A stretch of DNA of 64,000 nt from Patescibacteria group bacterium (lineage in GTDB: Bacteria; Patescibacteriota; Microgenomatia; UBA1406), in NCBI GenBank assembly GCA_041665145.1, contig JBAYJK010000001.1:229629-293628 (forward strand), read 5' to 3'. Made by a program: the position numbers and the translations under genes. The notes beneath the pieces were generated by a model. It was not told the origin of the DNA, ran no database searches, and was given only the letters and a program-made list of their open reading frames with translations. Position 1 is the stretch's first letter; the number at the start of each line of letters is the position of its first letter. This document shows, in pieces, positions 43,363 through 57,508 of the stretch.

Positions 43363-43392
43363 CCTTTAATTTTACCTCTAACGGGATGATAA

Positions 43393-45220: not shown

Positions 45221-45238
45221 CTTGATTATGTGTTAGTG

Positions 45239-45805: not shown

Positions 45806-45807
45806 GG

Positions 45808-46077
45808 CTAGTTATTATATGCGTCAGCTATTTGCCATAAGTGGATCAAGAACCCTGGCAAAAAGAACATCATGTAACCGATAATTGTGCATATAAAAAT
45901 CAGTAAGCCTTTACCAACTTGACTCTTTACTAGTTGTCCAAGTCCAGGGATAAATAGCGAAAGCAGCGCGGGGAAACCGTGTTTCTGAGTTTGGGTAGCA
46001 ACTATTTGATTACTCATTTGCTCACGATATCGCTCTTCTTCTTCGATTCTGCGTTTTTGGGCTTCTGTTAGTGCCAT
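45808..46077 (-). CDS. Small two-TM membrane protein (TM2-domain-like)
   Basis: The charged N-terminus (EAQKRRIEEEERYR) followed by LSLFIPGLGQL...GKGLLIF...W.IADAY resembles TM2-domain small proteins. Confidence 0.45.
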   Translation of the reverse strand: MALTEAQKRRIEEEERYREQMSNQIVATQTQKHGFPALLSLFIPGLGQLVKSQVGKGLLIFICTIIGYMMFFLPGFLIHLWQIADAYNN

Positions 46078-46087
46078 CTTGACTATG

Positions 46088-46115
46088 ATTATACCGCTAA
46101 TTGTGTATACGTCAA
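46088..46115 (-). promoter_or_regulatory. Candidate sigma-70 promoter for the 46077 minus-strand genes
   Basis: On the minus strand: TTGACG (46115-46110), 16 nt, TATAAT (46093-46088). The predicted transcript start is only a few nt before ATG 46077. Confidence 0.4.
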
Positions 46116-46208
46116 GTCTTTATATAGATTGACATGTCACTCTATATACAACATAAATCTACTATTTGTAGGTTGTACTATCGTACTATAGGGAAGCACA
46201 ATATATAC

Positions 46209-46433
46209 ATGTTGAGCAAGTCCCGTTTTACAGAAATAGTTGGTCAAAATATTAAGAGGATAAGACAAGACAAGGGTTGGTCACAAGACAAATTGTCTGC
46301 CGAGTGTAAGTTTTACAGGACTTATATCAATCTAGTGGAAACCGCCAAAAGAACTCCTTCTTCATACACATTGCACAGGATTGCCGGTGCTCTCGGTGTT
46401 CGGATAGATAAACTATATCCCCTCGTCAAATAA
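46209..46433 (+). CDS. XRE-family helix-turn-helix transcriptional regulator
   Basis: ATG 46209. VGQNIKRIRQDKGWSQDKLSAEC..YRTYINLVE..KR.PS..TL..IA.ALGV is a classic HTH_3 pattern. Confidence 0.75.
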   Translation: MLSKSRFTEIVGQNIKRIRQDKGWSQDKLSAECKFYRTYINLVETAKRTPSSYTLHRIAGALGVRIDKLYPLVK

Positions 46434-47297
46434 AGGCACATGCAATTCTTGTTCCAAAGATCTTTTCACATATGTTAGCGAGTCTCCCTCAAAGCTAGGG
46501 GTAGTTTTCCAATCCAGCATAATTAAATTGTTGTGTACAAATTCAGTAAATAGCGGGTGATTATTGTTAATTGTTGTGATGAATAGACTCTTTTTATCAA
46601 TATAATCCATACTAAACGGGCTTAATGTCTGCTCGTTTTCATCGCCTGTTTTCTCAGAGTCAGCAAAAATACTCTTAAGATTTGTTAGACAGAGTAGGTC
46701 TGGCAAATCTACCATTCCATTAAGAAAAAAATTGAGTGTCAATACATTGTCAGCAATTGCAATAAGTGAATGTAAAGCTGAAGCAAACGCACGAAGTATT
46801 TGCTTGTAGGTTACGGGCTTCATGTAGACTTTAGAAAAAGTCATAAATTTACTGAGCGACTCGGATGAAAATGAACTCTTTTCTGTAAGAGTCTCTATAA
46901 GTTTCTCGTCACGGAAATACCTCAGCTCATTCCATAAAGAAGCACCTCGTAACACGGCTAACTCACTATCTCGGTCATACTTATTGAGTAAGTCAGCAGC
47001 CCATTTGTATGCGTCGTATGTATGCGCGTCTTGAAGTGTATTAAATGATAGTATTTGTTTTAGGTCTTGTTGGTTATACAAACTCCGTACGCTGTCAGCA
47101 GCAATATAAGGGTTTGAAGCTCTTAATGCGTCAGAAGTTTGCTCTTTGAGCTGTTTAATATTTAGGTACTGCAGTAAAACCGCTTCATATGGAGTAAAAA
47201 TCCCTTTTTCGGCTACTTTTGAAATGAGACTTTGTTGAATCGACACGATATTATTTCTTCCGCAAACTGTTAACTTTTTTTCTAAGTAAAACTTCAC
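46413..47297 (-). CDS. Hypothetical protein
   Basis: 294-aa ORF with no recognisable motif. Last gene of the minus-strand MTase operon. Confidence 0.4.
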   Translation of the reverse strand: MKFYLEKKLTVCGRNNIVSIQQSLISKVAEKGIFTPYEAVLLQYLNIKQLKEQTSDALRASNPYIAADSVRSLYNQQDLKQILSFNTLQDAHTYDAYKWAADLLNKYDRDSELAVLRGASLWNELRYFRDEKLIETLTEKSSFSSESLSKFMTFSKVYMKPVTYKQILRAFASALHSLIAIADNVLTLNFFLNGMVDLPDLLCLTNLKSIFADSEKTGDENEQTLSPFSMDYIDKKSLFITTINNNHPLFTEFVHNNLIMLDWKTTPSFEGDSLTYVKRSLEQELHVPLFDEGI

Positions 47298-47799
47298 TCA
47301 ATACCTCAGATTCTTTTTTCCTGATGACAACATGCTCAGCTTTCATACTGGCTATAAACAATTTAAGAATTAATTGAGCCTGTTTTTCGCCAATGTCACC
47401 CTGCAACACATGTGTCGCAAGCATTTCTTGGCCATCTTTAAAAGTTTCAGTGTTATAGAGTAGCGCTAGTAGTTCTCTCAGTTCTTCATTGCTCATATTT
47501 ATATTTCTACTATTAATATCTGGGTCTTTGTTGTTCAGCCAAAACATGATTGCAGTTAAGTTACCTTCATTCATAAGTTTAACAAGTTGGGTATACGCCA
47601 TGTCTGTAATATTTCTTTTACTTTCTTGAATGTTTTCGTAGGCTTGGCGTTTAAATTCGGGGTCTTCTGCAATCCAGCGGTAAAACGTCTTACGATCAAT
47701 TCCAACAGCATTGCATACTGACAAAATTGTGAAGTTTTTAGTAAGTCGCTCAAGCATTGTCCTTTTTGTCGTGCTCCTTTGTTCATCGGTCATGGGCAA
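47251..47799 (-). CDS. HTH-domain protein (phage small-terminase-like N-terminus)
   Basis: SVCNAVGIDRKTFYRWIAEDPEFK resembles the HTH at the N-terminus of phage TerS-like/regulatory proteins. Weak call. Confidence 0.4.
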   Translation of the reverse strand: MPMTDEQRSTTKRTMLERLTKNFTILSVCNAVGIDRKTFYRWIAEDPEFKRQAYENIQESKRNITDMAYTQLVKLMNEGNLTAIMFWLNNKDPDINSRNINMSNEELRELLALLYNTETFKDGQEMLATHVLQGDIGEKQAQLILKLFIASMKAEHVVIRKKESEVLSEVLLRKKVNSLRKK

Positions 47800-48571
47800 T
47801 TGTTTTAACTAGTAAATTTGGAAAGATGCTGTGAAATCTGTTGACTATAGTCTGACAATATACCGGTGAGATTTCGGTCATCACACATGTTCTCCTTGTC
47901 TGCTGACACGCTAACAAAGTAGTTCCTGAACCTCCAAATCCGTCCCACACAATATCTCCTATTTGAGTGCTGTTCAATATTAGATGGCGAATTAAAGCTA
48001 CTGGTTTAGTGGTTGGATGTAACTTGCTTTTGTTAGGTTTAGGAAAACAGAGAACTGACTTATCTTTGCTTTTGTAGAATTCGTGCTTTCCAAACCAACC
48101 ATACAAGATGAGCTCATGTTGAGGATTATAGTCAAGTCGCCCGACAACATTATGATTTTTAGCCCAAATAAGAAGCTGCGAGAATTTACCACCTGCTGTT
48201 TCCAGAGCTTCCTTAACACTCCAAATCATTTTGTCCGAGTTAAAGATGTAGACGCTATTGGGAAGTATGAGGTGTTTTCTTACATTTTTAAGCCAGGAGC
48301 AGGTAAAGAGGGAGTATTCTTGTCCTGATCGTTGTTGATCATTAACGATGTTGGTTTGATTGGAAAGCTCGGCAAATCCCTCTTTTGCTTTGACCGTATC
48401 ACTGCCATATGGAGGATCAGTGACTACACAGCTAATTCTTCTGTCGCCAAGCATTTGTTGAAGTAACAGACTGTCCTCAGCTTTTCCACAACCTAGCATA
48501 TGATTCCCTAATTGGTATATATCTCCTAAGTTAATTGAGCCTGGCTGGTTTTGTTCCTGTAAGTTGTTCAT
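47783..48571 (-). CDS. DNA methyltransferase (N6-adenine/N4-cytosine type, beta class)
   Basis: Motif IV VTDPPYG and motif I FGGSGTTLLACQQTRR.CVMTEI. Confidence 0.8.
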   Translation of the reverse strand: MNNLQEQNQPGSINLGDIYQLGNHMLGCGKAEDSLLLQQMLGDRRISCVVTDPPYGSDTVKAKEGFAELSNQTNIVNDQQRSGQEYSLFTCSWLKNVRKHLILPNSVYIFNSDKMIWSVKEALETAGGKFSQLLIWAKNHNVVGRLDYNPQHELILYGWFGKHEFYKSKDKSVLCFPKPNKSKLHPTTKPVALIRHLILNSTQIGDIVWDGFGGSGTTLLACQQTRRTCVMTEISPVYCQTIVNRFHSIFPNLLVKTIAHDR

Positions 48572-49805
48572 AACGTAGTAGGATGAGATCTACGAAGACG
48601 GGGTCGATCTCAACGAGTAATGCCCGTCTTTTAAGTTGCTCTGCAGCAATCAATTGACTACCGCTTCCTGCAAAACAATCAAGAATATAGTCATCGACTT
48701 TAGTACACCTTCTCATTGCTTTCTCGTAGAGGGGAGGGGGTTTCATTGTTGGGTGCTGATATTCGGTTGCGGGCAGGCGATCAACTAACCAGATATTCAA
48801 CATATCCATAATATCGTCAATCGCGCGGTTGCCTGATGATATTTCTTTGTTTTGTATTTCTGTAAGGTTTCGGACAGTATCATTAAGGAAGGGCTTTCCG
48901 CGAGTACCGTAAATGCAGTATTCCGTCATTTTGTTGAAAGCTGTCTTAGCGGTTACAGATTGGTTGTTTTTAATCCAGATACAGAGACGTTTGTTTTCAA
49001 TTTTAAAGTCTCTGAATAACTGCTGAGTGAGTCCTACATATTTTTCATCTGACCAATAAAACACGTGAGTGTCTGGAGAAGCAACTGAGAGAGCGTTCTT
49101 CAATGAGGCTTCTAAAAGTTGGCGTTGCTCATCTTCGGTCCGTTGATCTTTTTCCTGCCCACCATAATTACTTTTATTACCAACCCCTCTTGAATAGTTC
49201 AATCCAATCCCAAACGGAGGATCACTGTTTATAAACGAGACCTTATTGTTTTCTGCGAGATGCTTTAGCACCAAAGGATCCCCGTTATCCCCACAGACAA
49301 CTCTATGTGGGCCAAGTTGAAACATGTCTCCAACTTTTGATACAGGATTATGAGCAACTTCCTTAATGGCTTTATCAAGGTTGAAATGATCATCTTCTAC
49401 TCCCAGCTCGCTATCCCAATATTTACTAAGGTCAATATCGTCTAGACCTGCGCGAATTAGGTCTTCAGGAGCGTATGACTTGAGGATTTCCCAATCCCAA
49501 TCGCCAGAATTAGCGTTACTTCTCAAGTTATAGTCTTTAAACTCCTGTTCGGTTAGTTTCCTGTTAGGAACTCTCACTTCTATTTCTTCATCAGCTCTGC
49601 CAAGTTGCACGAGTACTTTTATTCGCTGGTTCCCGGCAAGGACGATATTGTCTGTGTCGATTGCAGGTATTTCAACGAGGTTATAAATAGTAAGACCTTT
49701 CACCAGAATCTTTTGTTGATTCTCGGTTATATACCTCGGGTTGTCTTTGTAAAGATGTAGATCCCTCACTCTTCTTTTTTCCGTATGCCAGATAAGTTTT
49801 TCCAT
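48531..49805 (-). CDS. ParB-like nuclease domain fused to DNA methyltransferase
   Basis: N-terminal ParB-like region (..DNPR...E.....L...L......P.I......LAGNQR). MTase motif IV NSDPPFG and motif I FAGSGSQLIAAEQLKRRALLVEIDP. Confidence 0.8.
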   Translation of the reverse strand: MEKLIWHTEKRRVRDLHLYKDNPRYITENQQKILVKGLTIYNLVEIPAIDTDNIVLAGNQRIKVLVQLGRADEEIEVRVPNRKLTEQEFKDYNLRSNANSGDWDWEILKSYAPEDLIRAGLDDIDLSKYWDSELGVEDDHFNLDKAIKEVAHNPVSKVGDMFQLGPHRVVCGDNGDPLVLKHLAENNKVSFINSDPPFGIGLNYSRGVGNKSNYGGQEKDQRTEDEQRQLLEASLKNALSVASPDTHVFYWSDEKYVGLTQQLFRDFKIENKRLCIWIKNNQSVTAKTAFNKMTEYCIYGTRGKPFLNDTVRNLTEIQNKEISSGNRAIDDIMDMLNIWLVDRLPATEYQHPTMKPPPLYEKAMRRCTKVDDYILDCFAGSGSQLIAAEQLKRRALLVEIDPVFVDLILLRYEQLTGTKPARLN

Positions 49806-49834
49806 TTTTAACGTAAAGAACTTTTAATTAGCAC

Positions 49835-49892
49835 AAAAAAAGCGAACCTTGACAAGCCTCATTGTATTGAGTTGCTTATCCTGAAGGTTCGC
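49835..49892 (-). terminator. Strong intrinsic-terminator-like hairpin with U-tract on the minus strand, between a promoter and the ParB-MTase start
   Basis: On the minus strand, the 9-bp arms GCGAACCTT/AAGGTTCGC have further internal pairing (GATAAGC/GCTTGTC, CTCA/TGAG). Seven U follow (A-run 49835-49841 on plus). Confidence 0.55.
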
Positions 49893-49928
49893 CTTATTGC
49901 ATTAAGGGTAAAACAATGAACCATGAAA

Positions 49929-49957
49929 AATATAAGCTATATTCTCCCGTTTGTCAA
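49929..49957 (-). promoter_or_regulatory. Candidate sigma-70 promoter upstream of the ParB-MTase operon
   Basis: On the minus strand: TTGACA (49957-49952), 17 nt, TATATT (49934-49929). Confidence 0.5.
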
Positions 49958-50073
49958 GAGAATATATTGTTGTGACGCTCTAAATCCGAAGTAAAGCTGA
50001 GAAAAGCAAAGAAAACCTAAGAGTTGTAGATATGCGGTTTTTGCATAACAAAGAAACTGTAAGGTTATGTGCG

Positions 50074-50700
50074 TTACTCGTTTTTTCTTATTAGTCCGCA
50101 GTACTTTCCTCTTATGTGGATTTGTGATCTTCGATAAAATTTTGGCTGGTATGCAGAATCAGGATTATTGGGCCTTAATTCTATTTGATCCTCGTGTTTA
50201 TACAACCTTTTCAGGTTTGCCTTTTCGTCAGGGTCATCCGAAATTATCGCTACGGCTATTTCTCCATTATTAACATCATTTTGCTGTCTTACAACGATAT
50301 AGTCATTATTCATGATTCCATCGCCGAGCATACTGTTTCCATCAACCTTTAAACAATAATATGGAGCATCTGTCCTGACCATTGTTATAGAAACTTCGAC
50401 AAAGTCTGGATCAGGCTCCTCGAAAACACTAATTCCATCACCTGCAGATATGACTCCAAGTACAGGCAGGTGGACGGACTTAGATTCTGATCTGTCATTA
50501 AGAGCAATAGAGCGGGGTGTGTTCGGCTTCTTAATAATAAAGCCCTTCAGTACCAGCGTGCGAAGCCGAAATTGTGCTGCTGCCGAGGTGGTGCCCATAA
50601 ATTCAGCCATTTCCCTAAGAGTGGGAGCGCTCCCATGCTCTGGCATGTATCTTTTGATAAAATCAAGTAACTCCTGCTGCTTTTTTGTCAAAATACCCAT
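50074..50700 (-). CDS. lexA: LexA-family repressor (winged-helix DNA-binding domain + S24 autopeptidase)
   Basis: N-terminus LTKKQQELLDFIKRY..EHG.APTLREMAEFMG. Candidate Ala-Gly cleavage site in VISAGDG. S24 Ser (VDGNSM) and Lys (ANLKRL). Confidence 0.85.
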   Translation of the reverse strand: MGILTKKQQELLDFIKRYMPEHGSAPTLREMAEFMGTTSAAAQFRLRTLVLKGFIIKKPNTPRSIALNDRSESKSVHLPVLGVISAGDGISVFEEPDPDFVEVSITMVRTDAPYYCLKVDGNSMLGDGIMNNDYIVVRQQNDVNNGEIAVAIISDDPDEKANLKRLYKHEDQIELRPNNPDSAYQPKFYRRSQIHIRGKYCGLIRKNE

Positions 50701-50728
50701 TGAATTTTCAGAAGGAAAATGATATAAT
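50700..50728 (+). promoter_or_regulatory. Candidate promoter for the DUF2188/CBASS-like operon
   Basis: TTGAAT (50700-50705), 17 nt, TATAAT (50723-50728), with an extended -10 TG at 50720-50721. The -35 abuts the lexA start codon. Confidence 0.55.
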
Positions 50729-50744
50729 ATATATATGGTTAAGG

Positions 50745-50763
50745 ATATTGACTATACCAATAT
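50745..50763. promoter_or_regulatory. Palindrome ATATTG-N7-CAATAT, candidate shared operator
   Basis: Perfect 6-bp arms at 50745-50750 and 50758-50763, lying between the two divergent -10 elements. Confidence 0.4.
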
Positions 50764-50790
50764 TATAAGTTATCGATGCTAAGATGTCAA
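50762..50790 (-). promoter_or_regulatory. Consensus sigma-70 promoter for the LexA-family gene
   Basis: On the minus strand: TTGACA (50790-50785), exactly 17 nt, TATAAT (50767-50762). The -35 overlaps the DUF2188 ATG (50784-50786). Confidence 0.6.
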
Positions 50791-51023
50791 ACTACCATGT
50801 GGTAAGGAATTCTACGGGCGGTTGGGATGCTAAAAAGGAAAAATCAGAAAGGTCCAGTGGACATTTTAATACCCAGAGAGAAGCAGAATTGGAAGCAAAG
50901 CAGTTTGCGGCCAATAACGGCGGTGGCGAGGTAAAAATCCATGGATTGAATGGACAGATCCGGGATAGCGATACTGTTTCACCGGGCCACGATCCTAATC
51001 CTCCTGAAGATAAAAAGCACTAA
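50784..51023 (+). CDS. DUF2188-family small protein
   Basis: YHVV.N..GGW..KKE.SERSSG.F.TQREAE.EAKQFA.NNGGGEV.IHG.NGQIR matches the DUF2188 pattern as I remember it. It ends 4 nt before the NTase ATG. Confidence 0.65.
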   Translation: MSNYHVVRNSTGGWDAKKEKSERSSGHFNTQREAELEAKQFAANNGGGEVKIHGLNGQIRDSDTVSPGHDPNPPEDKKH

Positions 51024-51027
51024 AAAC

Positions 51028-51972
51028 ATGCAAATAACAGACACAGGACTCTATACTTTTTTGGGTGACCGAGTATTCCTTGACAGTGATACTTTGGAAG
51101 TCTATCGAAATCAGGCTAACAACCTCAAGAAGAAACTTCAGGACTACATTAATGAGAACCCTGAGTTCCAGTTGGTAAAAATGCTTAACTCGGGCTCTGT
51201 CGCCAAGGGAACTGCCTTGAAAACAATTAATGACATGGATGTTGCTGTCTATGTGCGCCCCGGCAAGATTCCAGATCATAAAGTGAATAAAATGTTGGAA
51301 TATTTGCGTGATGCATTGATCTCTGTGTATGGTGATACCATGACACCTGATCAATTTTCTATTGGTACGCATTGTGTGCGAGTTGGCTTTAAGGGTACTG
51401 GTTTGGATGTTGAAGTGGTCCCTGTTATCCCAAACGGGAAACCCGATGATCGTGGAGATGTTCTAAACAATGACAATGGCGAATGGGTAGAAACCTCAAT
51501 TCCTCTACATTTGGAGTTTATCCGAGAGCGTAAAAATCTATATCCGCAGTACGCGGAAATTGTTCGAATGACAAAGTGGTGGAGAAATCAGCGAGGTTTC
51601 AAGTTCAAGTCCTTTCTTATTGAGCTTTTATGGTGTCACATGGTTGACGCGCAATTGGTTTTGGAATCCCGCATAGAAGCTTTTGGGAAATTCCTACGAT
51701 ATATCCTTTCAACTCAACTTCAAGAGAAAATCGTTTTTACGGACTATTATCGAAGAGCCGAGGTTAAAGGTGATGATTCTCCAATTCAAGTCTATGATCC
51801 GATAAATCCCAAAAATAACGTTGGTATAACGATCACAGAGGCAGATAGACAGACCATAGTAAAAGAAGCCCAGTTAGCATTTGATGCTTTGGCAATGGCT
51901 TGTTCTGCATATACGAAAGAAAATGCAGTCGCAAATTGGCAGAAGATATTAGGATCAGGATTCAATCCGTAA
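51028..51972 (+). CDS. CD-NTase-like (cGAS/DncV-like, SMODS-type) nucleotidyltransferase
   Basis: NSGSVAKGTALKTINDMDVAVYV (G-S ... DxD) plus the third acidic strand GLDVEVVPV. A helical C-terminal half has a KWWR motif. First enzymatic gene of the operon. Confidence 0.7.
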   Translation: MQITDTGLYTFLGDRVFLDSDTLEVYRNQANNLKKKLQDYINENPEFQLVKMLNSGSVAKGTALKTINDMDVAVYVRPGKIPDHKVNKMLEYLRDALISVYGDTMTPDQFSIGTHCVRVGFKGTGLDVEVVPVIPNGKPDDRGDVLNNDNGEWVETSIPLHLEFIRERKNLYPQYAEIVRMTKWWRNQRGFKFKSFLIELLWCHMVDAQLVLESRIEAFGKFLRYILSTQLQEKIVFTDYYRRAEVKGDDSPIQVYDPINPKNNVGITITEADRQTIVKEAQLAFDALAMACSAYTKENAVANWQKILGSGFNP

Positions 51973-51977
51973 TTAAT

Positions 51978-52496
51978 ATGAGCTATCAAACAAGTACAGT
52001 CACAAGATCGAACACTATTACACACACCGATGTGCGGAATGTTATTTGGAAAATTAAGAGTGACATGTTTCAACTTAGGCTATTTCACGACATGTTTGAT
52101 GCCGAGTACGAAGAAGATATGTCCTACGATCTTTTTCAGTGGACTTATCGTGGATATGCTAACGCCATAAAGTTTCAATTCTATAACCCAACAACTTACT
52201 TGGCCCACTGCGAGATTAAATATGACATAATTCGTGGACAAATTGCTGGATCGGATGATGATGCGGGGTCAATTCCATTTTTAAATCTTAAAGGGACGTC
52301 CTTTCGAGTAGTCATAACCCCCAGCACTTCTTGGAATGGTTTGTCTGCTGAAGATAAACAAGCTTTTTACGATACGTTAAAGAGACAGTGGGGATCGTCT
52401 AATTTACAGCTCCAATATGCTGGTGGGTCTTGGTTACAAGACAAGACGTATTCAAGCAATAGCTTTGGCGCAAATAGATCAATTTATAAAATATGA
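51978..52496 (+). CDS. Bacterial HORMA-like protein (Cap7-like), tentative
   Basis: 173 aa, between the NTase and the AAA+ gene. T.T.TDVRNV..KIKSD....L, SDDDAG, W.GLSAEDKQAFYDTL..QW and QDKTYSS resemble CBASS HORMA proteins from memory. Not verifiable here. Confidence 0.45.
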   Translation: MSYQTSTVTRSNTITHTDVRNVIWKIKSDMFQLRLFHDMFDAEYEEDMSYDLFQWTYRGYANAIKFQFYNPTTYLAHCEIKYDIIRGQIAGSDDDAGSIPFLNLKGTSFRVVITPSTSWNGLSAEDKQAFYDTLKRQWGSSNLQLQYAGGSWLQDKTYSSNSFGANRSIYKI

Positions 52497-53707
52497 AAAT
52501 CACAATTTTGCAAAACGGGAAACAAATAAGAGACATTGAAGTTGGTATCGAGTTGATAATATCCGAAGCTGAAAGAAAAGGAAGTTCTGACCCAATTAAG
52601 GCTACAGTCGTAGAGATAGAACATATTCTGGAACAGGAAAGCATTTCTGTAAAAGAGGAAGAGCTTGCAAAGTTGAACTCAATTATTGCAGAATCGGTAA
52701 CAACAGGAAACTTTCCTGATTCTCTGGAATTACAGGCAAAAACTATGAGAAAAATACCATTTTTTAGTAAAAAAACAGAAACTATTAATCCCGCTTTACA
52801 ACAAGCTGGAAAGTTTTTTGAGGGAGTCATCTCCTATCCCAACGATGAATCAAAAGAAATATACGACAGCCTTATTGGCCTAGATGATATTAAAAAAAGA
52901 TTAACAAAAGAGGCTTCGCTATTGGTTGCGAGTGACAATTTGGAAAAGTGGAGTAAAAAGTACAACAAGAAAGTCCTTCTTGCCTGTAAAGCATTTGAAA
53001 GACGTACCCCATTAATAGTTTTTGCTGGAGATGTTGGTACGGGGAAAACAGCACTTGCAGAATCTTTTGGAAATGAGATCGCGCAACAGCTGAAATCTAA
53101 TGTGCACTTACTTAGGGTAAGTGTCCAAACTCGAGGTACAGGTCTTGTGGGCGAAATGACTCAACTCATCAACAAAGCGTTTAATGAAGCTAAAAGAGTT
53201 GCCGAGGCAGTTAATTCACCTATAATTCTTTTGGTTGATGAAGCTGATACATTAGCCCAGTCAAGGGAAGAATCGCAAATGCATCATGAGGATAAAGCAG
53301 GCGTTAATGCGTTGATACAAGGTATTGACCATGTCAGAGAAGCGCACGCTCCTATTTTAGTTGTATTCTGCACAAATAGAATCCAAGCAATTGACCCTGC
53401 AATAATGCGCAGAGCCGCAATTACGCATGAATTTTCTCGCCCGAGCCAAGAACAGTTGGGTATGGTATTTAAACAATATTTTGGAGATCTTGGTTTAACA
53501 GCTGAGCAATTGTCACAACTCATAAATGCAGCATCACCAAACTCTGGTCGCACATACGGTTTCACCTACTCAGATATTACTAATAGAGTAATTCCAACAA
53601 CTATATTGAAAGCCTATCCTGATAGGGCTTTAGAGTTTAATGACATACTAGAAACTGTTCAATCCTTACAACCAACTCCTCCATTTCAAGAAGGGAGACG
53701 ATCATGA
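52493..53707 (+). CDS. AAA+ ATPase (TRIP13/Pch2-like, Cap6-like)
   Basis: Walker A FAGDVGTGKTALAE, Walker B ILLVDEADTL, sensor-1 VVFCTNR and Arg region PAIMRRAA. ATGA overlap with the upstream gene. Confidence 0.7.
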   Translation: MKITILQNGKQIRDIEVGIELIISEAERKGSSDPIKATVVEIEHILEQESISVKEEELAKLNSIIAESVTTGNFPDSLELQAKTMRKIPFFSKKTETINPALQQAGKFFEGVISYPNDESKEIYDSLIGLDDIKKRLTKEASLLVASDNLEKWSKKYNKKVLLACKAFERRTPLIVFAGDVGTGKTALAESFGNEIAQQLKSNVHLLRVSVQTRGTGLVGEMTQLINKAFNEAKRVAEAVNSPIILLVDEADTLAQSREESQMHHEDKAGVNALIQGIDHVREAHAPILVVFCTNRIQAIDPAIMRRAAITHEFSRPSQEQLGMVFKQYFGDLGLTAEQLSQLINAASPNSGRTYGFTYSDITNRVIPTTILKAYPDRALEFNDILETVQSLQPTPPFQEGRRS

Positions 53708-55164
53708 CTGATTCGGCTTCACTATTAGGAAAGCAAGCCATGGGAGGATTGTATGGCGAAGGTGGATATAAATTTCAGGATGCTTATATTGTAAGCAAAA
53801 TACCAGACTGGATTTGCGACGCTAATTTTATACAAATTCTTAAAGAAGGTTCTGGTGATGTTGATATTGCATTTAATAAAGAAGATAAGCTTTTTAGAAT
53901 TTATACTCAAATAAAAGGTTACTCAATAACTCAATCAGAATTCAAAACCATTCTGAAAGAATTTAAGGTTAAGGACGCTTCTACCCCAAATACATACCAG
54001 AGATTTGTACTTGCAAGCACTGGTCTGAATGATGGAGTTACTAAACTAAAGACAGCGCTAGAAAGAATCAGAGGGTCAAAGGATTACTTTACACCACAAG
54101 ATCAAGTATCTGCTGATACATTGGCAAGCATTACTGCTATTGCTAAGGAATTGGGTGCTGATGCAGATATAAACTTTATTTTAGAAAAGGTTCATTTTGA
54201 CTTTGTATGGCCAGGATTTACTCAGCTCGAACAAGTTATTCGTCTTTTCTGTGGAGGGATGCAAAATGTTCAGAGCTACCAAGAAAAAATAAAATATTTT
54301 AGGCATATTTTTCACCCATTGTATTCATACATTGTGGATAGTTCTGGCAAAACTATTAACAGAGCTGATTTGGAAGCTAAAATGACCGAGTTTGTAGAAA
54401 ACTACAGACTTCAGATGGAAGAGCAAGGATTTACGCTCAGAATGTACCACTGGGAATCTACACCATACGAACTAAAACTTGAGTATGACGAAGTTTTAGA
54501 CTGGTCAAAACATTTTGAAAAAAATTCAAGAAAGATAGCTCCGCCAGAAGTATGGCAAAAAGAATTATTACCAGAGCTTTCTGATTTAGAAAAAAGAGTG
54601 CGAGAAAGCGGAACAGTTCGACTTATAAAGTTTGAGGGTTCAGCCTGTTTATCGGCTGGGGTTGCTCTTGGATGGGCATTCCCTGAGGTCGGCGAATACG
54701 TGATTGAACTGCTACCAAGATTAGGCCAGAAAACCGAACCATGGAGGACTGATACTTCGACACAGAGAGTCTTCAATTTAACCTCAGAAGACTGTGAAAT
54801 GTATGCTGACGGAAGTGGATTGGCTGTTAAATTCAATATCGTGGCCGATGTTACAACTGATTTAAATAAATATATCTCAGAGTCAGGAAGTCGATTTAAA
54901 GCAAGTCTTCAATTAACACCTGAAAGTGGAGTTGGCGAAACCATTACTAAAGAGTCAGCTATTAGTTATGCACGAAGTGCAAAGAGACTTATTAGAGAAG
55001 CGGTAACGAAATACAGCGTAGACAAGATATCTCTGTTTTTTGCAGGTCCACTGGGTATTGCCATCTTTTTAGGGCAATTATTGAATGCCATGCCGGAAGT
55101 CCAGTGCTACGAACAGAAACAAGATAGAGGTTACCAACTTTCTTGTTTAATACCTAGAACTTAA
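53704..55164 (+). CDS. Cap4-like effector: PD-(D/E)xK-type nuclease N-domain + SAVED-like C-domain
   Basis: The N-terminus GGYKFQDAY ... EGSGDVDIAF ... YTQIKG has a DUF4297/Cap4-like layout. The C-terminal ~250 aa, ending SLFFAGPLGIAIFLGQLLN, resemble SAVED. ATGA overlap upstream. Confidence 0.6.
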   Translation: MTDSASLLGKQAMGGLYGEGGYKFQDAYIVSKIPDWICDANFIQILKEGSGDVDIAFNKEDKLFRIYTQIKGYSITQSEFKTILKEFKVKDASTPNTYQRFVLASTGLNDGVTKLKTALERIRGSKDYFTPQDQVSADTLASITAIAKELGADADINFILEKVHFDFVWPGFTQLEQVIRLFCGGMQNVQSYQEKIKYFRHIFHPLYSYIVDSSGKTINRADLEAKMTEFVENYRLQMEEQGFTLRMYHWESTPYELKLEYDEVLDWSKHFEKNSRKIAPPEVWQKELLPELSDLEKRVRESGTVRLIKFEGSACLSAGVALGWAFPEVGEYVIELLPRLGQKTEPWRTDTSTQRVFNLTSEDCEMYADGSGLAVKFNIVADVTTDLNKYISESGSRFKASLQLTPESGVGETITKESAISYARSAKRLIREAVTKYSVDKISLFFAGPLGIAIFLGQLLNAMPEVQCYEQKQDRGYQLSCLIPRT

Positions 55165-55172
55165 TAAAAGCT

Positions 55173-56843
55173 GTGCAGTACTTGCATGATGAACAACACT
55201 ATATCGACCGCTACGACCTTCGTACAATTGAAGAATGTCTCGATAATGTAAAAATATTTCAGGAAATTTATCAGAAAAGTCTAAACAGTAAACAACTAAA
55301 TGATATTTCCCAAGAAGATAAACTGCACGATGTGAATCTGATGCTTCACCGCATTCTTTTTGTTATCAAAGGCAAGAGATATGAAAAGAAACAAGAAACT
55401 ATCGAGAAGTGGATGGAAGAAGATAAATTAAAACAAGATAAGCAAGACTACACTCCAGTCCCAGAAACAGTCATCTGTCCTCTCTGTAGCGGCTCCATGT
55501 TTTTTAAATCTTCAAAACATCTTGATTATTCATACGATAGCCCGATCATGCGCATGATGTTTCTTTTTAAGTGTAGTAAATGCAAAAAACAGCAGTGGGT
55601 TTATGACGACGGTGAGATTCGCGTGTCAAAGCCTGAACTTTGTCCAAAATGCAAAAATGAAATAGACATGAAAGTTACGCGAAAAGGCAAAGTTATCAGT
55701 TGGAAACATAAATGCAAGACGTGCGGCTATACCAAAACTGAAATTGATGATCTTGCTAAACATGACGAAGAACACAAACAATGGGAGAGAGAACAAAAGA
55801 AAAAGGAAGAAGAAGGCAAAAAACTTCTTGAAAAATACCGGGAAGAGTTTTGTCTAAACGAAAAAGATGGGATAGAGTACGTAGAAACACTTGGAGCAAT
55901 CGAGGTAGGTCATGAAGTGTATGAAGAAGAAAAACAGAAACACGATGACAAAGCCTATCAAACGGCAGTAAATCTAAAAAGGCTCACGGTTCTTGAAATC
56001 GAGAAGCTGCTGACCGAAAAACTAGAAAAGGAAAAGTACGTTAAATTCACATTGGATAAACCAGGCATGGGAAGATTTCTTACGATACCCTTTAACGTTT
56101 TAGATGTTAATTCAACAAGAAATCCTAACATAAGTGAAACCACCCTTAAAAAACTCGTCAAAGACACATTAGAAGATACTAACTGGCGATTGATGAGTGA
56201 TGGAATTCGCTATCGTCTTGGGTATCTCTCTGGCACTCTGAAAGCATTTGAGCAAGAAGAAGATTTACTTGCATTGGTTGGAGCCAAAAAAGAGGTAAAA
56301 GCTTCGAAATCAAAGATTGATCCAGAAAAACGCGCTAAATATATGAGCCATAACCTTGTTCAACTCGCAAGAATGTCTGGAGAGTTTGATGGCGTTGAAG
56401 AAACACGGAAACGAAGGCTTGAGAAAGAGCCGGAAGGATTCTTCCTCGACGACGGTAAAGGTCCGTATTCTTGTGGGATTTGTGGTGAAGGAGCCTATGG
56501 AAAAGACATTTGGTGGACATTAAATGGCTTATGGTGCAGAAATTGCTGGAACAATATCAAAGCTAGCGTTATCCCTCCACTAAAACATAGATACGACAAG
56601 GATAATATTTACTTTCAAGATTGGCAGATAGAATCTGATTTCGGAATACATCCTGCAACTAGAAGGAAATTAAAACGGGAAGGATTATTGAAAGGCAGAG
56701 CGTTAAAGAATGAAAAAGGCCAAATTTACTATACTATTTATCTAGTCTCAGAAAACCAAGAGTTTCTGAAAAAATACCCAAGAAAAGGTAAGAAAACTCG
56801 AGAGACAATTGCTGGCAAAGATTACAAACCTATTGAATTATGA
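55173..56843 (+). CDS. Multi-zinc-ribbon protein of unknown function
   Basis: 556 aa, GTG start. Cys pairs CPLC..CSKC, CPKC..CKTC and CGIC..CRNC, plus a Lys/Glu-rich coiled segment. No enzymatic motif recognised. Confidence 0.5.
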   Translation: MQYLHDEQHYIDRYDLRTIEECLDNVKIFQEIYQKSLNSKQLNDISQEDKLHDVNLMLHRILFVIKGKRYEKKQETIEKWMEEDKLKQDKQDYTPVPETVICPLCSGSMFFKSSKHLDYSYDSPIMRMMFLFKCSKCKKQQWVYDDGEIRVSKPELCPKCKNEIDMKVTRKGKVISWKHKCKTCGYTKTEIDDLAKHDEEHKQWEREQKKKEEEGKKLLEKYREEFCLNEKDGIEYVETLGAIEVGHEVYEEEKQKHDDKAYQTAVNLKRLTVLEIEKLLTEKLEKEKYVKFTLDKPGMGRFLTIPFNVLDVNSTRNPNISETTLKKLVKDTLEDTNWRLMSDGIRYRLGYLSGTLKAFEQEEDLLALVGAKKEVKASKSKIDPEKRAKYMSHNLVQLARMSGEFDGVEETRKRRLEKEPEGFFLDDGKGPYSCGICGEGAYGKDIWWTLNGLWCRNCWNNIKASVIPPLKHRYDKDNIYFQDWQIESDFGIHPATRRKLKREGLLKGRALKNEKGQIYYTIYLVSENQEFLKKYPRKGKKTRETIAGKDYKPIEL

Positions 56844-57310
56844 TAAACAAGAATCAGAAATTAAAAATAACTCTCGATAGCTGTATTTTATTTGATTATC
56901 TTAATCCACATAGAAAAAATCACGTAAAAGCAAAGAAAGTTATTGAAGATAATCGTTACGAATTATATATTACAGAAAGTGTTCTTAAAGAGATAAGAAT
57001 TGATACTCAATTGGAAGAAGTCAAACGCCTTATTAGTTCGAATGTGCTAATAGTGTTGAAAGAGCCTGGTATGGGAATATCAATTCCGGTATCAATACCA
57101 ATGGATCTTTCTCATATTTCAGCTAAAAGAGATGCTTCTATCGCTTTACATCTCAAAAAGAGACCTGGTTTAAAAAAACACAAAGTCTTAAGAGATTTCT
57201 TAATAGCAGAAGCTCATCAACGAAATAAAAATGATTACTTGTTAACAACCAATACAAAAGATTTTATTGACAATACTGATATGATTATTAAATCATATGA
57301 AAATTTATAA
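56840..57310 (+). CDS. PIN-domain nuclease-like protein
   Basis: Acidic residues at canonical PIN positions (KITLDSCILFD; ITESVLKE; DFLIAEA; LLTTNTKDF). ATGA overlap with the upstream gene. Confidence 0.6.
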   Translation: MINKNQKLKITLDSCILFDYLNPHRKNHVKAKKVIEDNRYELYITESVLKEIRIDTQLEEVKRLISSNVLIVLKEPGMGISIPVSIPMDLSHISAKRDASIALHLKKRPGLKKHKVLRDFLIAEAHQRNKNDYLLTTNTKDFIDNTDMIIKSYENL

Positions 57311-57474
57311 AGTAGATCAAAATGCATCATATAGTTTATTCCTTCTTTTTATAGTGTGGTATTTGTAGCATTTTTTACTAGTTACAGGATAGAATTTCGA
57401 AGAATGCTCTATAATACCAATTGAGTGTCCTGGGGTTTAAACTATGAGGATTAAATAGTTCCAGACCTAGGTGC

Positions 57475-57508
57475 TCCGCCTTCGCTCGCCGAAGCGAGCT
57501 ACGGCGGA
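57475..57508. other. GC-rich interrupted hairpin in otherwise AT-rich spacer
   Basis: TCCGCC-ttc-GCTCGC-cgaa-GCGAGC-tac-GGCGGA, i.e. 12 paired positions. Confidence 0.6.

What the first reader, a model, noticed from the sequence alone, without database searches (positions are those of the whole stretch)
55173..57310. Unrecognised 556-aa multi-zinc-ribbon protein translationally coupled to a PIN nuclease, appended to the CBASS-like operon
- The 556-aa ORF starts 8 nt after the SAVED-effector stop and has only GTG (55173) or TTG (55182) as start candidates.
- It contains three Cys-pair clusters (CPLC..CSKC, CPKC..CKTC, CGIC..CRNC) and a Lys/Glu-rich coiled segment. I can find no enzymatic motif.
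- Its TGA (56841-56843) overlaps the ATG (56840) of a 156-aa ORF with PIN-type acidic residues (LDSCILFD, ITESV, DFLIAEA, TTNTKDF).
- PIN toxins are normally paired with small antitoxins, so a large Zn-ribbon partner is not a layout I recognise.

It could be a second effector/sensor module of the CBASS-like system, an independent two-gene defence system, or an atypical toxin-antitoxin pair stabilising the island.
Basis: partly seen in the sequence, partly recalled or inferred. Interest (0 to 1): 0.62.

Follow-up and report, generated by a model that had tools for sequence, protein, structure and literature searches.

The report
Island-borne zinc-ribbon protein plus PIN nuclease
The 556-aa gene belongs to a large, unannotated protein family of Patescibacteria (candidate phyla radiation, CPR) that sits in mobile defence islands beside ever-changing immune genes, and the gene after it is a real but rare PIN nuclease cassette; neither is part of the CBASS system next door.

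Summary

- **The 556-aa protein ("c0")** is not an artefact. It belongs to a CPR-restricted family of about 966 clusters at 50% identity.
  - There are two architectures: a ~360-aa core, and that core plus a C-terminal Zn-ribbon and winged-helix-like extension.
  - It has no match in Pfam, NCBIfam, PHROGs, PADLOC, PDB or BFVD beyond generic Zn ribbons.
  - It is under strong purifying selection (dN/dS about 0.04-0.11).
- **The 156-aa protein** is a genuine, divergent PIN domain. It has a VapC-like fold, D13/E51/D119 invariant and D141 near-invariant.
- **Location.** Both genes lie at the far end of a ~15-kb island beside tRNA-Ser. The island carries a serine integrase, a TerS-like gene, ParB-methyltransferases, a LexA-like repressor and a type III CBASS.
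- **Across 80 loci**, the genes flanking c0 are interchangeable defence cargo (CBASS, Shedu, R-M, KAP NTPase). About 26 loci keep a fixed polarity relative to a TerL-TerS-methyltransferase module.
- **The PIN cassette** shares an operon or neighbourhood with c0 in 4 of 8 independent contexts. It also follows Fic, HTH or membrane proteins.

My best reading is that c0 is a conserved, non-enzymatic nucleic-acid-binding gene of these islands' immunity operon. It is not a CBASS part and not a dedicated antitoxin. Its function is unproven.

The parts
55173..56843 (+). c0: 556-aa multi-Zn-ribbon protein, long form of a CPR-restricted uncharacterised family
   Evidence: The ORF is. At least 640 homologues were found, and 966 clusters at 50% identity. 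The AF2 model has pLDDT 80 and pTM 0.60. There is no significant hit in Pfam, NCBIfam, PHROGs, PADLOC, PDB or BFVD. dN/dS is 0.04-0.11.
55173..55457 (+). c0 residues 1-95: long helical hairpin with family-wide conserved Y10, Y14, D15, T18, W80, D84
   Evidence: AF2 predicts helices 7-37 and 47-93 with pLDDT about 86-96. Conservation was measured in 118 diverse members.
55458..55751 (+). c0 residues 96-193: two tandem Cys4 zinc ribbons
   Evidence: The eight Cys are invariant or at least 90% conserved. The only database similarity is weak and generic, to Rpb9/TFIIS-type and other Zn-ribbon families.
55752..55946 (+). c0 residues 194-258: coiled-coil hairpin with a conserved tip motif R-F-C-L-S-[DE]-x-x-G (C227)
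   Evidence: AF2 predicts helices 194-226 and 230-256 with pLDDT 88-94. C227 is at least 90% conserved family-wide.
55947..56282 (+). c0 residues 259-370: alpha/beta domain with a conserved T-N-W-R motif; this is the end of the ~360-aa core shared with the short form
   Evidence: The secondary structure is. The best Foldseek matches are S24e/S6-like folds at E >= 0.02, which is not significant. T336, N337 and W338 are conserved. Short homologues cover profile positions 1-370.
56283..56843 (+). c0 residues 371-556: extension specific to the long form (basic linker, helix, third Cys4 ribbon, alpha-alpha-beta-beta-alpha winged-helix-like unit, disordered tail)
   Evidence: The winged-helix assignment rests on predicted secondary structure only and has no Pfam or PDB support. 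Some relatives add a P-loop kinase domain after this extension.
56840..57310 (+). PIN-like 156-aa protein (divergent VapC-type PIN domain with a conserved ~40-residue insertion)
   Evidence: There are 10 homologues. D13, E51 and D119 are invariant and D141 is at least 90% conserved. PIN_3, PIN_12 or PIN Pfam models hit 5-7 of 10 members, best E 4.8e-5. AF2 gives pLDDT 84.5 and pTM 0.78. The top Foldseek PDB hits are VapC toxins, E 2e-5, probability 1.0.
56840..56843 (+). ATGA stop/start overlap between c0 and the PIN gene
   Evidence: The same 4-nt overlap is present in L001.
50700..50728 (+). Promoter-like site (TTGAAT-17-TATAAT with TG) upstream of the DUF2188-CBASS-c0-PIN gene string, facing the divergent LexA-like gene
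   Evidence: This is a consensus scan only. No comparably placed promoter or terminator lies directly before c0.
50784..55164 (+). Operon mates upstream of c0: DUF2188/PDC-S16 (50784-51023), CD-NTase (51028-51972), HORMA (51978-52496), TRIP13 (52493-53707), Cap4-nuclease-SAVED (53704-55164). Together these form a type III CBASS.
   Evidence: Pfam hits are. PADLOC gives Cyclase 6e-105, HORMA 7e-16, TRIP13 5e-117 and Effector 3e-103.
50074..50700 (-). LexA-like repressor (LexA_DNA_bind + Peptidase_S24) transcribed divergently from the CBASS-c0-PIN string
   Evidence: Relatives (cluster c4) are present in 20 of 80 c0 loci.
42530..57503 (.). ~15-kb low-GC integrative island containing c0 and the PIN gene at its right end
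   Evidence: An independent 14,974-bp contig (Logan SRR18595301_99217) is 100% identical and spans exactly these coordinates. GC is 0.35-0.41 inside and 0.42-0.49 outside. Host genes resume at about 57640.
43393..44733 (-). Large serine recombinase (integrase) of the island, next to tRNA-Ser(cga) at 42470-42557
   Evidence: Resolvase, Recombinase and Zn_ribbon_recom domains are recorded. The same tRNA-Ser/integrase arrangement is seen in L052 and L083.
47251..49805 (-). Island backbone: TerS-like HTH (47251-47799), N6/N4 methyltransferase (47783-48571), ParB_N-methyltransferase (48531-49805)
   Evidence: Homologous modules lie upstream of c0 on the opposite strand in about 26 loci.
57476..57507 (+). 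GC-rich hairpin CCGCCTTCGCTCGCCGAAGCGAGCTACGGCGG, where the independent contig ends
   Evidence: It is unique in the window. No Rfam match was found.

Best explanation
**Setting.** The two genes are the last genes of a ~15-kb integrative island of a Roizmanbacteria-like CPR bacterium.

**c0.** The 556-aa protein (c0) is a conserved, non-enzymatic gene of such islands, probably nucleic-acid-binding. Its parts are a helical hairpin, two Zn ribbons, a coiled-coil hairpin and an alpha/beta domain. The long form adds a third Zn ribbon and a winged-helix-like unit.

**Position in the island.** c0 lies on the far side of the cargo slot from the methyltransferase-TerS-TerL-integrase module. It is co-transcribed with whatever immune cargo sits there; here that is a type III CBASS.

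**Most likely role (inferred, not shown).** c0 is an immunity or exclusion factor, or a regulator, of the repressor-linked operon. It would bind DNA or RNA through its Zn ribbons and oligomerise through the coiled coil. It would act alone or with an interchangeable downstream effector.

**PIN gene.** The 156-aa gene is a separately mobile VapC-type PIN RNase cassette. It is predicted to be catalytically competent and has landed behind c0 more than once. In this locus it would be the nuclease output, or a toxin, expressed by translational coupling to c0.

**What it is not.** Neither gene is a component of CBASS.
For: **Island**
- An independent contig matches window 42530-57503 exactly.
- GC content dips inside these coordinates.
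- A serine integrase lies beside tRNA-Ser.

**c0 family**
- At least 640 homologues and 966 clusters at 50% identity, nearly all from CPR MAGs.
- No hit in INPHARED phages or PLSDB plasmids.
- Only one direct IMG/VR hit.

**Selection and mobility**
- dN/dS is 0.04-0.11 with dS >= 1.1.
- DNA homology to other loci starts and stops exactly at the ORF ends.
- c0 is 82% and PIN 77% identical to their L001 counterparts. RpoD of what appears to be the same contig is only 66% identical.

**Context**
- Flanking genes differ between loci. They include CBASS, Shedu, type I R-M, an Eco57I-like enzyme with a PLD-SNF2 helicase, KAP NTPase, PDC-M14A and PDC-S39.
- 40 of 64 loci of at least 12 kb have a recognised defence gene within 6 genes of c0.
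- About 26 loci show methyltransferase(-)...c0(+) polarity and none shows the reverse.
- c0 is found at the same relative position in 5 of 79 IMG/VR contigs fetched through the TerL gene.
- In L001, L013, L016, L017, L036, L037 and L059 the LexA-like repressor heads the same-strand gene string that ends in c0. This is the arrangement expected for lysogeny-expressed immunity genes.

**Effector-like partners**
- A P-loop kinase is fused to c0 in L058, L059 and P0137, and is a separate gene 5 nt downstream of c0 in L052.
- Other downstream genes include PIN, a nucleotidyltransferase, DUF5677, DUF4238 and DUF4209.

**PIN**
- Searches support the PIN assignment.
- It lies with c0 in 4 of 8 independent contexts.
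Against: - **No functional data.** No catalytic motif and no informative fold match were found for c0. Nucleic-acid binding is inferred only from Zn ribbons, basic segments and a winged-helix-like secondary-structure pattern that Pfam and PDB do not support.
- **The fixed position also fits a life-cycle gene.** The fixed position relative to the TerL-TerS-methyltransferase module, and a conservation level similar to those genes, fit a life-cycle gene of the island equally well. Median pairwise identities are c0 47%, TerL 44%, TerS-like 52% and methyltransferase 65%.
- **Conservation is unusual for an immune sensor.** Strong purifying selection is atypical for proteins in an arms race.
- **No constant neighbour.** c0 has none. 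About half of the loci have no same-strand gene within 50 nt downstream.
- **The defence association is a rough count.** It has no background control, and only recurrent clusters were annotated.
- **The sample is biased.** All loci were fetched through c0 or TerL.
Confidence: 0.45

Rival explanations
1. c0 is a life-cycle gene of the island. Candidates are a recombination directionality factor for the serine integrase, a non-enzymatic replication initiator, or a transcription regulator or anti-repressor that senses a helper phage. The island would be a capsid-less, terminase-carrying, satellite-like element. The defence genes would simply be cargo inserted next to c0.
For: - c0 has a fixed polarity and position relative to the methyltransferase-TerS-TerL-integrase module in about 26 loci, and in IMG/VR contigs fetched through TerL.
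- Its conservation is comparable to the backbone genes.
- Variable cargo lies on both sides of c0, as at hotspots flanked by core genes in other mobile elements (the comparison is from general knowledge).
- c0 has only DNA-binding-type modules and no enzyme domain.
- It often follows LexA-like, XRE or ImmA-like regulators.
Against: - An island with the same backbone lacks c0 (L088).
- c0 occurs in elements with a different backbone that already carry an HTH_17 Xis-like gene and an AAA_25 replication-type gene (L005/L006).
- 40 of 64 loci show no backbone gene within 6 genes of c0.
- Integrases of the same loci are only 31-46% identical to the window's, whereas c0 reaches 69-88% in its closest loci. 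This argues against tight co-evolution with the integrase.
- No iterons or ori-like repeats lie in or next to the gene.
- In several loci c0 is co-transcribed with the repressor itself, which is unexpected for an induction-phase gene.
Confidence: 0.3
2. c0 and the PIN protein form an atypical type II toxin-antitoxin (VapBC-like) addiction module. c0 would act as a giant antitoxin and autoregulator that stabilises the island.
For: - The ATGA overlap is typical of VapB-VapC pairs and is conserved in L001.
- c0 ends in a winged-helix-like unit followed by a disordered tail, which resembles antitoxin architecture (inference).
- No other candidate antitoxin gene is conserved beside the PIN gene. 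DNA homology to L001 ends at the PIN stop codon.
- c0 and the PIN gene are juxtaposed in two independent lineages, WIN/L001 and L072.
- In L093 and L098 the PIN gene is preceded by a small overlapping ORF, as in classical TA pairs.
Against: - Only 3 of 80 c0 loci carry the PIN gene directly downstream.
- The PIN gene has at least six different upstream neighbours, or none.
- The short c0 of L072 lacks the whole C-terminal extension yet is still followed by the PIN gene.
- The C-terminal tail of c0 is near-identical in homologues with PIN (P0009) and without PIN (P0003/L008).
- c0 is far larger and far more widespread than any known antitoxin (the size comparison is from general knowledge).
Confidence: 0.15
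3. c0, with or without the PIN gene, is an accessory module of the type III CBASS: a second effector, sensor or regulator.
For: - c0 starts 8 nt after the SAVED gene with no promoter or terminator in between.
- CD-NTase genes occur near c0 in 9 of 80 loci. This includes the kinase-fused variants L058 and L059.
Against: - c0 matches none of the PADLOC CBASS models.
- 71 of 80 c0 loci have no CD-NTase nearby.
- Where CBASS is present, it lies upstream or downstream of c0 and is often separated from it by the LexA-like gene.
- The closest c0 relatives (86-88% identity: L016, L008, L009) have no CBASS.
- The CBASS here is already complete, with cyclase, HORMA, TRIP13 and a Cap4-SAVED effector.
Confidence: 0.05
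4. The 556-aa ORF is an assembly or frameshift artefact that fuses unrelated genes.
For: A natural short form (~360 aa) exists, so the long form is a composite of a core and an extension.
Against: - More than 100 collinear homologues of 540-570 aa come from independent assemblies.
- Three independent assemblies are 100% identical at this locus.
- Purifying selection acts along the whole gene.
- The AF2 model is confident across both parts.
Confidence: 0.01

Closest known systems
VapC-type PIN-domain toxins (type II toxin-antitoxin systems)
   Same: The 156-aa protein has the PIN fold; its top Foldseek hits are M. tuberculosis, Rickettsia and Shigella VapC. It has the four acidic residues D13, E51, D119 and D141. 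It overlaps its upstream gene by 4 nt.
   Different: It has no small dedicated antitoxin. Its upstream partner varies from locus to locus. It carries a conserved ~40-residue insertion (residues ~76-115) absent from classical VapC. It misses every Pfam PIN threshold.
Core genes that flank cargo or defence hotspots in integrative elements and phage satellites (P4-like satellites, PICIs, SXT-type ICEs). This comparison is drawn from general knowledge.
   Same: c0 keeps a fixed place and orientation relative to the methyltransferase-TerS-TerL-integrase module while the genes between and beyond are swapped. DNA homology between loci is confined to the c0 ORF.
   Different: c0 is unrelated in sequence or fold to any described satellite or ICE core protein. 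It is missing from some islands of the same type and present in islands of other types.
Repressor-linked exclusion genes of prophages (for example lambda rexAB co-transcribed with cI). This is an analogy from general knowledge.
   Same: In several loci c0 is in the same-strand gene string headed by the LexA/CI-like S24 repressor, together with recognised defence systems.
   Different: There is no homology. In the window itself the repressor is divergent rather than co-transcribed. An exclusion activity has not been tested.
Type III CBASS (CD-NTase + HORMA + TRIP13 + Cap4-SAVED)
   Same: c0 shares an operon with it in the window.
   Different: c0 and the PIN gene match no CBASS model and mostly occur without CBASS.
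LdgA / DdgA, Patescibacteria-restricted defence proteins recovered by functional metagenomic selection (PMC12366544)
   Same: [quoted passage not shown] The same is true of c0.
   Different: Their sequences could not be obtained here. The primer fragments in the supplement show no c0-like N-terminus, but that is not a real test. Any relationship is unknown.

Membership tests
PIN domain nucleases (156-aa protein) | Rossmann-like alpha/beta/alpha PIN fold | tested here: met
   The AF2 model has pLDDT 84.5. The top Foldseek PDB hits are VapC, Nob1 and SMG6 PIN domains, best E 2e-5, probability 1.0, TM 0.5-0.67.
PIN domain nucleases (156-aa protein) | Four conserved acidic residues that form the metal-binding site | tested here: met
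   D13, E51 and D119 are invariant and D141 is at least 90% conserved in 10 homologues. Their spatial clustering in the model was not inspected.
PIN domain nucleases (156-aa protein) | Match to a curated PIN profile above threshold | tested here: not met
   The window protein has no Pfam hit. Homologues hit PIN_12, PIN_3 and PIN only below the gathering score, best E 4.8e-5. The protein is therefore a divergent member.
Type II VapBC toxin-antitoxin pair (c0 + PIN) | Small (~70-100 aa) upstream antitoxin with a DNA-binding domain and a toxin-binding tail | tested here: not met
   The upstream gene encodes 556 aa. Its tail is the same in homologues with and without PIN.
Type II VapBC toxin-antitoxin pair (c0 + PIN) | The two genes are co-inherited across homologues | tested here: not met
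   The PIN gene directly follows c0 in 3 of 80 c0 loci. PIN homologues have at least six different upstream neighbours.
Type II VapBC toxin-antitoxin pair (c0 + PIN) | The toxin is growth-inhibitory and is neutralised by its partner | not testable with these tools
   This needs expression assays or at least a complex prediction.
CBASS (c0 or PIN as a component) | Homology to a known CBASS cyclase, effector or Cap protein | tested here: not met
   PADLOC gives no CBASS model for either protein, whereas the four upstream genes hit with E values from 7e-16 (HORMA) to 5e-117 (TRIP13).
CBASS (c0 or PIN as a component) | Consistent co-occurrence with a CD-NTase | tested here: not met
   A CD-NTase cluster is present in 9 of 80 c0 loci, on either side of c0.
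Large serine recombinases (considered for c0 because it combines Zn ribbons with a coiled coil) | N-terminal resolvase catalytic domain and recombinase domain | tested here: not met
   c0 has no Resolvase or Recombinase hit. The island's true integrase at 43393..44733 has all three domains.
DksA/TraR-type RNA-polymerase secondary-channel factors (considered for c0; one source had labelled a homologue DksA) | zf-dskA_traR Cys4 finger C-terminal to a coiled coil with a DxxDxA tip | tested here: not met
   PF01258 appears only at E 0.083 in one C-terminal fragment. The domain order differs, because the ribbons precede the coiled coil. The coiled-coil tip does carry conserved C227 and acidic residues, which is only a lead.
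Defence-island genes (guilt-by-association criterion) | Most family members lie next to known defence genes | tested here: inconclusive
   40 of 64 loci of at least 12 kb have a recognised defence gene within 6 genes. Only recurrent clusters were annotated, there is no background rate, and the loci were sampled through c0.
Phage or plasmid core genes | Presence in sequenced phages or plasmids | tested here: not met
   tblastn finds nothing in 50,697 phage records or 72,556 plasmid records. The direct pattern scan found c0 on one IMG/VR contig. It was found on 5 of 79 contigs fetched through TerL, and these look like islands, not virions.
LdgA / DdgA (PMC12366544) | Sequence homology to the published defence proteins | not testable with these tools
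   The sequences are not in the held text or supplements. They are on Zenodo (10.5281/zenodo.15758252) and near CP158487.1:424-429 kb.

The most novel reading that the evidence does not exclude
c0 is the founding member of a CPR-specific immune module. It would be a conserved, non-enzymatic nucleic-acid sensor or adaptor that works with interchangeable effector cassettes encoded directly downstream or fused to it. These cassettes include a PIN RNase, a P-loop kinase, a nucleotidyltransferase, DUF5677 and DUF4209. The module would be carried by a previously undescribed class of terminase-encoding, capsid-less integrative islands that insert beside tRNA-Ser genes.
Probability: 0.25. Interest if true: 0.8.

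Novelty: categorically new. Interest (0 to 1): 0.58.

Why it matters
- **A gap in CPR immunity.** CPR/Patescibacteria make up a large share of bacterial diversity, yet few immune systems have been described in them.
- **A handle on their islands.** c0 is a large family (about 1000 clusters at 50% identity) with no known relatives. It marks the cargo slot of CPR mobile islands. That makes it a practical landmark for finding CPR defence islands and new immune genes on either side of it. It is also a candidate immune or regulatory protein in its own right.
- **Unexpected conservation.** c0 is 82% identical between two genomes whose sigma-70 proteins are only 66% identical. This suggests it contacts something conserved, which would be unusual for island cargo.
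- **A mobile PIN cassette.** The PIN gene shows how a VapC-type nuclease can travel without a fixed antitoxin.
- **Caveat.** 'Categorically new' refers to the c0 protein family. Its function is unproven, and the PIN gene alone is only a new, divergent member of a known kind.

Tried and rejected
**Searches that found nothing useful for c0**
- Pfam, NCBIfam, PHROGs and PADLOC on the whole protein, on 118 family members and on separate domains gave only generic Zn-ribbon hits.
- Sequence and profile searches of PDB gave an Rpb9/TFIIS-type ribbon at E 0.01 and uL23 at E 0.14, neither significant.
- Foldseek against PDB and BFVD gave nothing at E <= 0.001.
- tblastn against phages and plasmids gave nothing.

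**Ideas tested and dropped**
- *A constant partner gene.* HMM iteration on the downstream clusters c24, c14, c20 and c50 found no hidden common family.
- *A split C-terminal domain next to short forms.* No candidate gene was seen.
- *att repeats.* There is no shared word of 10 nt or more between the two island ends. This is compatible with a serine integrase.
- *Iterons or an origin in or near c0.* Only Lys/Glu-codon low-complexity repeats were found.
- *An RNA element at the island end.* There is no Rfam match, and the hairpin is unique in the window.
- *c0 is more conserved than the whole island backbone.* This held against the window's own methyltransferases. It failed across all locus pairs: median identity was 47% for c0 and 65% for the methyltransferase.
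- *L088's 356-aa gene is a short c0.* It is a metallo-beta-lactamase-like protein.
- *Equivalence with LdgA/DdgA.* Their sequences could not be obtained, and the primer fragments are uninformative.
- *HUH, primase or polymerase reading of the alpha/beta domain.* The domain has no conserved His or acidic residues.

Full report
**1.

ORF 55173..56843 (+, 556 aa, GTG) starts 8 nt after the stop of the SAVED gene. ORF 56840..57310 (+, 156 aa) overlaps its stop codon in an ATGA. The GTG start is supported by homologues, which all begin M-x-Y-L with Y3 and L4 invariant.

The three Cys4 clusters are invariant in the long family. The first two are at least 90% conserved in 118 diverse relatives. The gene is not a fusion artefact:
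- More than 100 collinear homologues are 540-570 aa long.
- Three independent assemblies are identical here.
- dN/dS is 0.04-0.11.

**2. The upstream neighbours are a complete type III CBASS**

The upstream genes are DUF2188/PDC-S16, CD-NTase (PADLOC 6e-105), HORMA, TRIP13 (5e-117) and a Cap4-nuclease-SAVED effector (3e-103). A LexA-like S24 repressor is transcribed divergently, and consensus promoter-like sites lie between the two. No promoter or terminator separates the SAVED gene from the 556-aa gene. Co-transcription is therefore likely, but this is an inference.

**3. The 156-aa protein is a PIN nuclease**

The window protein has no Pfam hit of its own. The other evidence is consistent:
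- 5-7 of its 10 homologues hit PIN_12, PIN_3 or PIN below threshold.
- D13, E51 and D119 are invariant, and D141 is at least 90% conserved.
- The AF2 model (pLDDT 84.5, pTM 0.78) matches VapC toxins by Foldseek (5x3t_B, E 2e-5, probability 1.0).
- A conserved ~40-residue insertion (residues ~76-115, partly low confidence) sets it apart from classical VapC.

**4. The 556-aa protein (c0) is a large unannotated family**

| Property | Result |
|---|---|
| Close homologues | at least 640 |
| Clusters at 50% identity (exhaustive profile search) | 966 |
| Source organisms | almost all Patescibacteria/CPR MAGs: Roizman-, Beckwith-, Woese-, Levy-, Davies-, Shapiro- and Pace-bacteria, Saccharibacteria, WWE3 |
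| Architectures | a ~355-370-aa core covering profile positions 1-370, and the ~545-560-aa long form found here |
| Variants with an added C-terminal P-loop kinase domain | L058, L059, P0137; a similar kinase is a separate gene 5 nt downstream in L052 |

A few MAGs carry other taxonomic labels. These may be mis-binned contigs; I did not test that.

The AF2 model (pLDDT 80, pTM 0.60) shows these parts in order:
1. A long helical hairpin (residues 1-93).
2. Two Zn ribbons.
3. A coiled-coil hairpin (194-256).
4. An alpha/beta domain (273-368).
5. A helix.
6. A third Zn ribbon.
7. An alpha-alpha-beta-beta-alpha unit that looks like a winged helix.

Family-wide conserved residues are Y10, Y14, D15, T18, W80, D84, the eight ribbon cysteines, C227 at the coiled-coil tip, and T336-N337-W338. 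Nothing beyond generic Zn ribbons was found in any of the following:
- Pfam, NCBIfam, PHROGs and PADLOC.
- PDB by sequence or profile.
- PDB or BFVD by fold.
- Sequenced phages or plasmids.

**5. The locus is a mobile island**

- tRNA-Ser (42470-42557) is followed by a large serine recombinase (43393..44733, -), an XRE gene, a TerS-like HTH gene, two methyltransferases (one fused to ParB_N), the LexA-like gene, CBASS, c0 and the PIN gene. Host genes resume at about 57640.
- GC is 0.35-0.41 inside and 0.42-0.49 outside.
- A 14,974-bp contig from another data set is 100% identical and spans exactly window 42,530-57,503. It runs from the T-arm of the tRNA to a unique GC-rich hairpin.
- No terminal repeat was found. 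A serine integrase would not need one.

c0 and the PIN gene are therefore the last two genes of the island.

**6. Comparative context of c0**

I clustered the neighbours of c0 in 80 non-redundant loci.

- **No constant neighbour.** No gene is a constant neighbour of c0.
- **Cargo seen beside c0.** It includes CBASS, Shedu, type I R-M, an Eco57I-like enzyme with a PLD-SNF2 helicase, an SF1 helicase-nuclease, KAP NTPase, DUF2779, DUF5677, PDC-M14A and PDC-S39.
- **Defence association.** 40 of 64 loci of at least 12 kb have a recognised defence gene within 6 genes of c0.
- **Fixed skeleton.** About 26 loci share one layout: TerL(-), TerS-like(-), ParB-methyltransferase(-), then regulators and cargo, then c0(+). 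The reverse polarity was never seen.
- **TerL is real.** It shows Walker A/B and nuclease motifs and hits phrog_38 at 4e-80. It has 251 relatives in IMG/VR.
- **No capsid genes after TerL.** In the two contigs examined, the gene after TerL is the serine integrase, not a portal.
- **Same relative place in IMG/VR.** c0 sits in the equivalent position in 5 of 79 of those contigs.
- **tRNA-Ser at the integrase end.** It flanks the integrase end in the window, L052 and L083.

These elements look like capsid-less, terminase-carrying integrative islands with a cargo slot bounded by the methyltransferase and c0. An island of the same type lacks c0 (L088). c0 also occurs in an element of a different type (L005/L006).

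**7. Conservation**

- DNA homology between the window and L016, L008, L009, L011 and L013 (81-84% nt identity) begins at the start codon of c0 and ends at its stop codon.
- Homology to L001 runs through c0 and the PIN gene and ends at the PIN stop codon.
- dS is at least 1.1, so these are not very recent transfers.
- c0 is 82% and the PIN protein 77% identical to their L001 counterparts. The RpoD protein carried on a 414,000-bp contig is 66% identical. I matched that contig to L001 by length only.

This points to horizontal movement, strong constraint, or both. Across all locus pairs c0 is about as conserved as the other backbone genes. Median identities are c0 47%, TerL 44%, TerS-like 52% and methyltransferase 65%. 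My first impression that c0 out-conserves everything was specific to the window's own methyltransferases.

**8. Is the c0-PIN pair a unit?**

The PIN family is rare. There are 10 clusters and 5 further metagenome loci. I found eight independent contexts:

| Context | Arrangement |
|---|---|
| Window and L001 | directly after long c0, 4-nt overlap |
| L072/L097 | directly after short c0, 15-nt gap |
| L101 | same operon, two genes between; the PIN gene is frameshifted |
| L098 | PIN gene about 1 kb upstream of a c0 start |
| L088 | no c0; follows a membrane protein in the same island type |
| L089/L090/L099 | no c0; PIN gene alone |
| L091/L092/L100 | no c0; follows Fic in a diversity-generating retroelement |
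| L093 | no c0; follows an HTH_17 protein |

The two genes share a neighbourhood far more often than chance alone would give. Their order and spacing are not fixed, and most c0 genes have no PIN gene. The C-terminal tail of c0 is the same with and without a PIN neighbour. I read the PIN gene as a separate cassette from the same island gene pool, not as an obligate partner.

**9. Interpretation**

*Shown:*
- The gene structures.
- The PIN fold.
- The family size and its CPR restriction.
- Island membership.
- Variable defence cargo around c0.
- Fixed polarity relative to the terminase module.
- Purifying selection.

*Inferred:* c0 binds nucleic acid and acts as an immunity or exclusion factor, or as a regulator, of the repressor-linked operon. 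In this locus the PIN protein would be a coupled nuclease output.

| Reading | Confidence | Basis |
|---|---|---|
| Immunity, exclusion or regulatory gene of the island operon | 0.45 | operon mates, co-transcription with the repressor in several loci, effector-like downstream or fused partners |
| Life-cycle gene of the island | 0.30 | position and conservation |
| TA pair with the PIN protein | 0.15 | ATGA overlap, but partners vary |
| CBASS accessory | 0.05 | shared operon here only |
| Assembly artefact | 0.01 | refuted |

**10. Literature lead**

A functional metagenomics study reports two defence proteins, LdgA and DdgA. [quoted passage not shown] I could not obtain their sequences, so any relationship to c0 is open.

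**11. Verdict**

The links it proposed to CBASS and to a TA pair are mostly not supported.

c0 is a new protein family with no known relatives and a striking genomic behaviour, but its function is unknown. The PIN gene is a divergent member of a known kind. Interest is 0.58.

Noticed in passing
window 42530-57503: A ~15-kb low-GC integrative island lies beside tRNA-Ser(cga). An independent 14,974-bp contig from another data set (Logan SRR18595301_99217) is 100% identical and spans exactly these coordinates. This suggests either assembly-graph branch points at the island ends or a separate form of the element.
   Followed up: partly
window 47251-49805; loci L008, L009, L013, L017, L021, L052, L083, L107, L130: A recurrent module runs ParB_N-methyltransferase, TerS-like HTH, bona fide TerL (phrog_38, 4e-80), then directly a large serine integrase, with no portal or capsid genes. 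It is widespread, with 251 TerL relatives in IMG/VR. It may mark an undescribed class of terminase-carrying, capsid-less satellite-like islands in CPR bacteria. In the window TerL is replaced by a 294-aa ORF (46413-47297) with no homologues in the libraries tried.
   Followed up: partly
window 42470-42557; L052 774-856; L083 1248-1331; L058 13758-13843; L060 13999-14080: tRNA-Ser genes flank these islands repeatedly. They lie at the integrase end in the window, L052 and L083, and a few kb beyond c0 in L058 and L060. This points to tRNA-Ser as the preferred insertion locus.
   Followed up: partly
window 50784-51023: A DUF2188 gene (PADLOC candidate PDC-S16, E 7.5e-23) is the first gene of the CBASS operon. 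The same LexA-like / DUF2188 start is seen in L088 ahead of different cargo: a metallo-beta-lactamase-fold protein, a membrane protein and the PIN gene.
   Followed up: no
window 50700-50790: The divergent intergenic region between the LexA-like gene and DUF2188 carries a perfect TTGACA-17-TATAAT on the minus strand. It also carries a TG-extended -10 promoter-like site on the plus strand. Operator sites were not sought.
   Followed up: no
window 57476-57507: A GC-rich hairpin, unique in the window (CCGCCTTCGCTCGCCGAAGCGAGCTACGGCGG), lies in an otherwise AT-rich spacer at the right end of the island. The independent contig ends inside it. It has no Rfam match.
   Followed up: partly
L058 10001-12097; L059 10001-12091; P0137; L052 11596-12150: Some c0 relatives carry a C-terminal P-loop kinase domain (AAA_18/AAA_33). 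In L052 a similar small kinase is a separate gene 5 nt downstream of c0. This fusion-versus-neighbour pattern hints at a functional link.
   Followed up: partly
L010 and L019 (both on contig CAZBEF010000001.1); L025 and L030; L054 and L083: Some genomes carry two diverged copies of c0 in different islands. The L019 copy appears split into 354-aa and 191-aa ORFs, possibly a pseudogene.
   Followed up: no
L091/L092 6961-8504: A PIN-like homologue sits 5 nt after a Fic-domain gene, inside a diversity-generating retroelement locus (reverse transcriptase plus bAvd genes).
   Followed up: no
window 40412-41977 and 58427-61275: Large secreted proteins with long Pro/Thr-rich repeats (TPTPT...) lie on both sides of the island. 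One carries a sortase domain (the Pfam hit is recorded).
   Followed up: no
L040, L042, L045, L048, L049, L053, L054, L087 (just upstream of c0): A DUF2779 protein of ~475 aa is present in 15 of 80 c0 loci and usually lies within two genes of c0, in either orientation. It is often accompanied by a 617-aa Peptidase_S26-domain protein. Neither matches PADLOC.
   Followed up: partly
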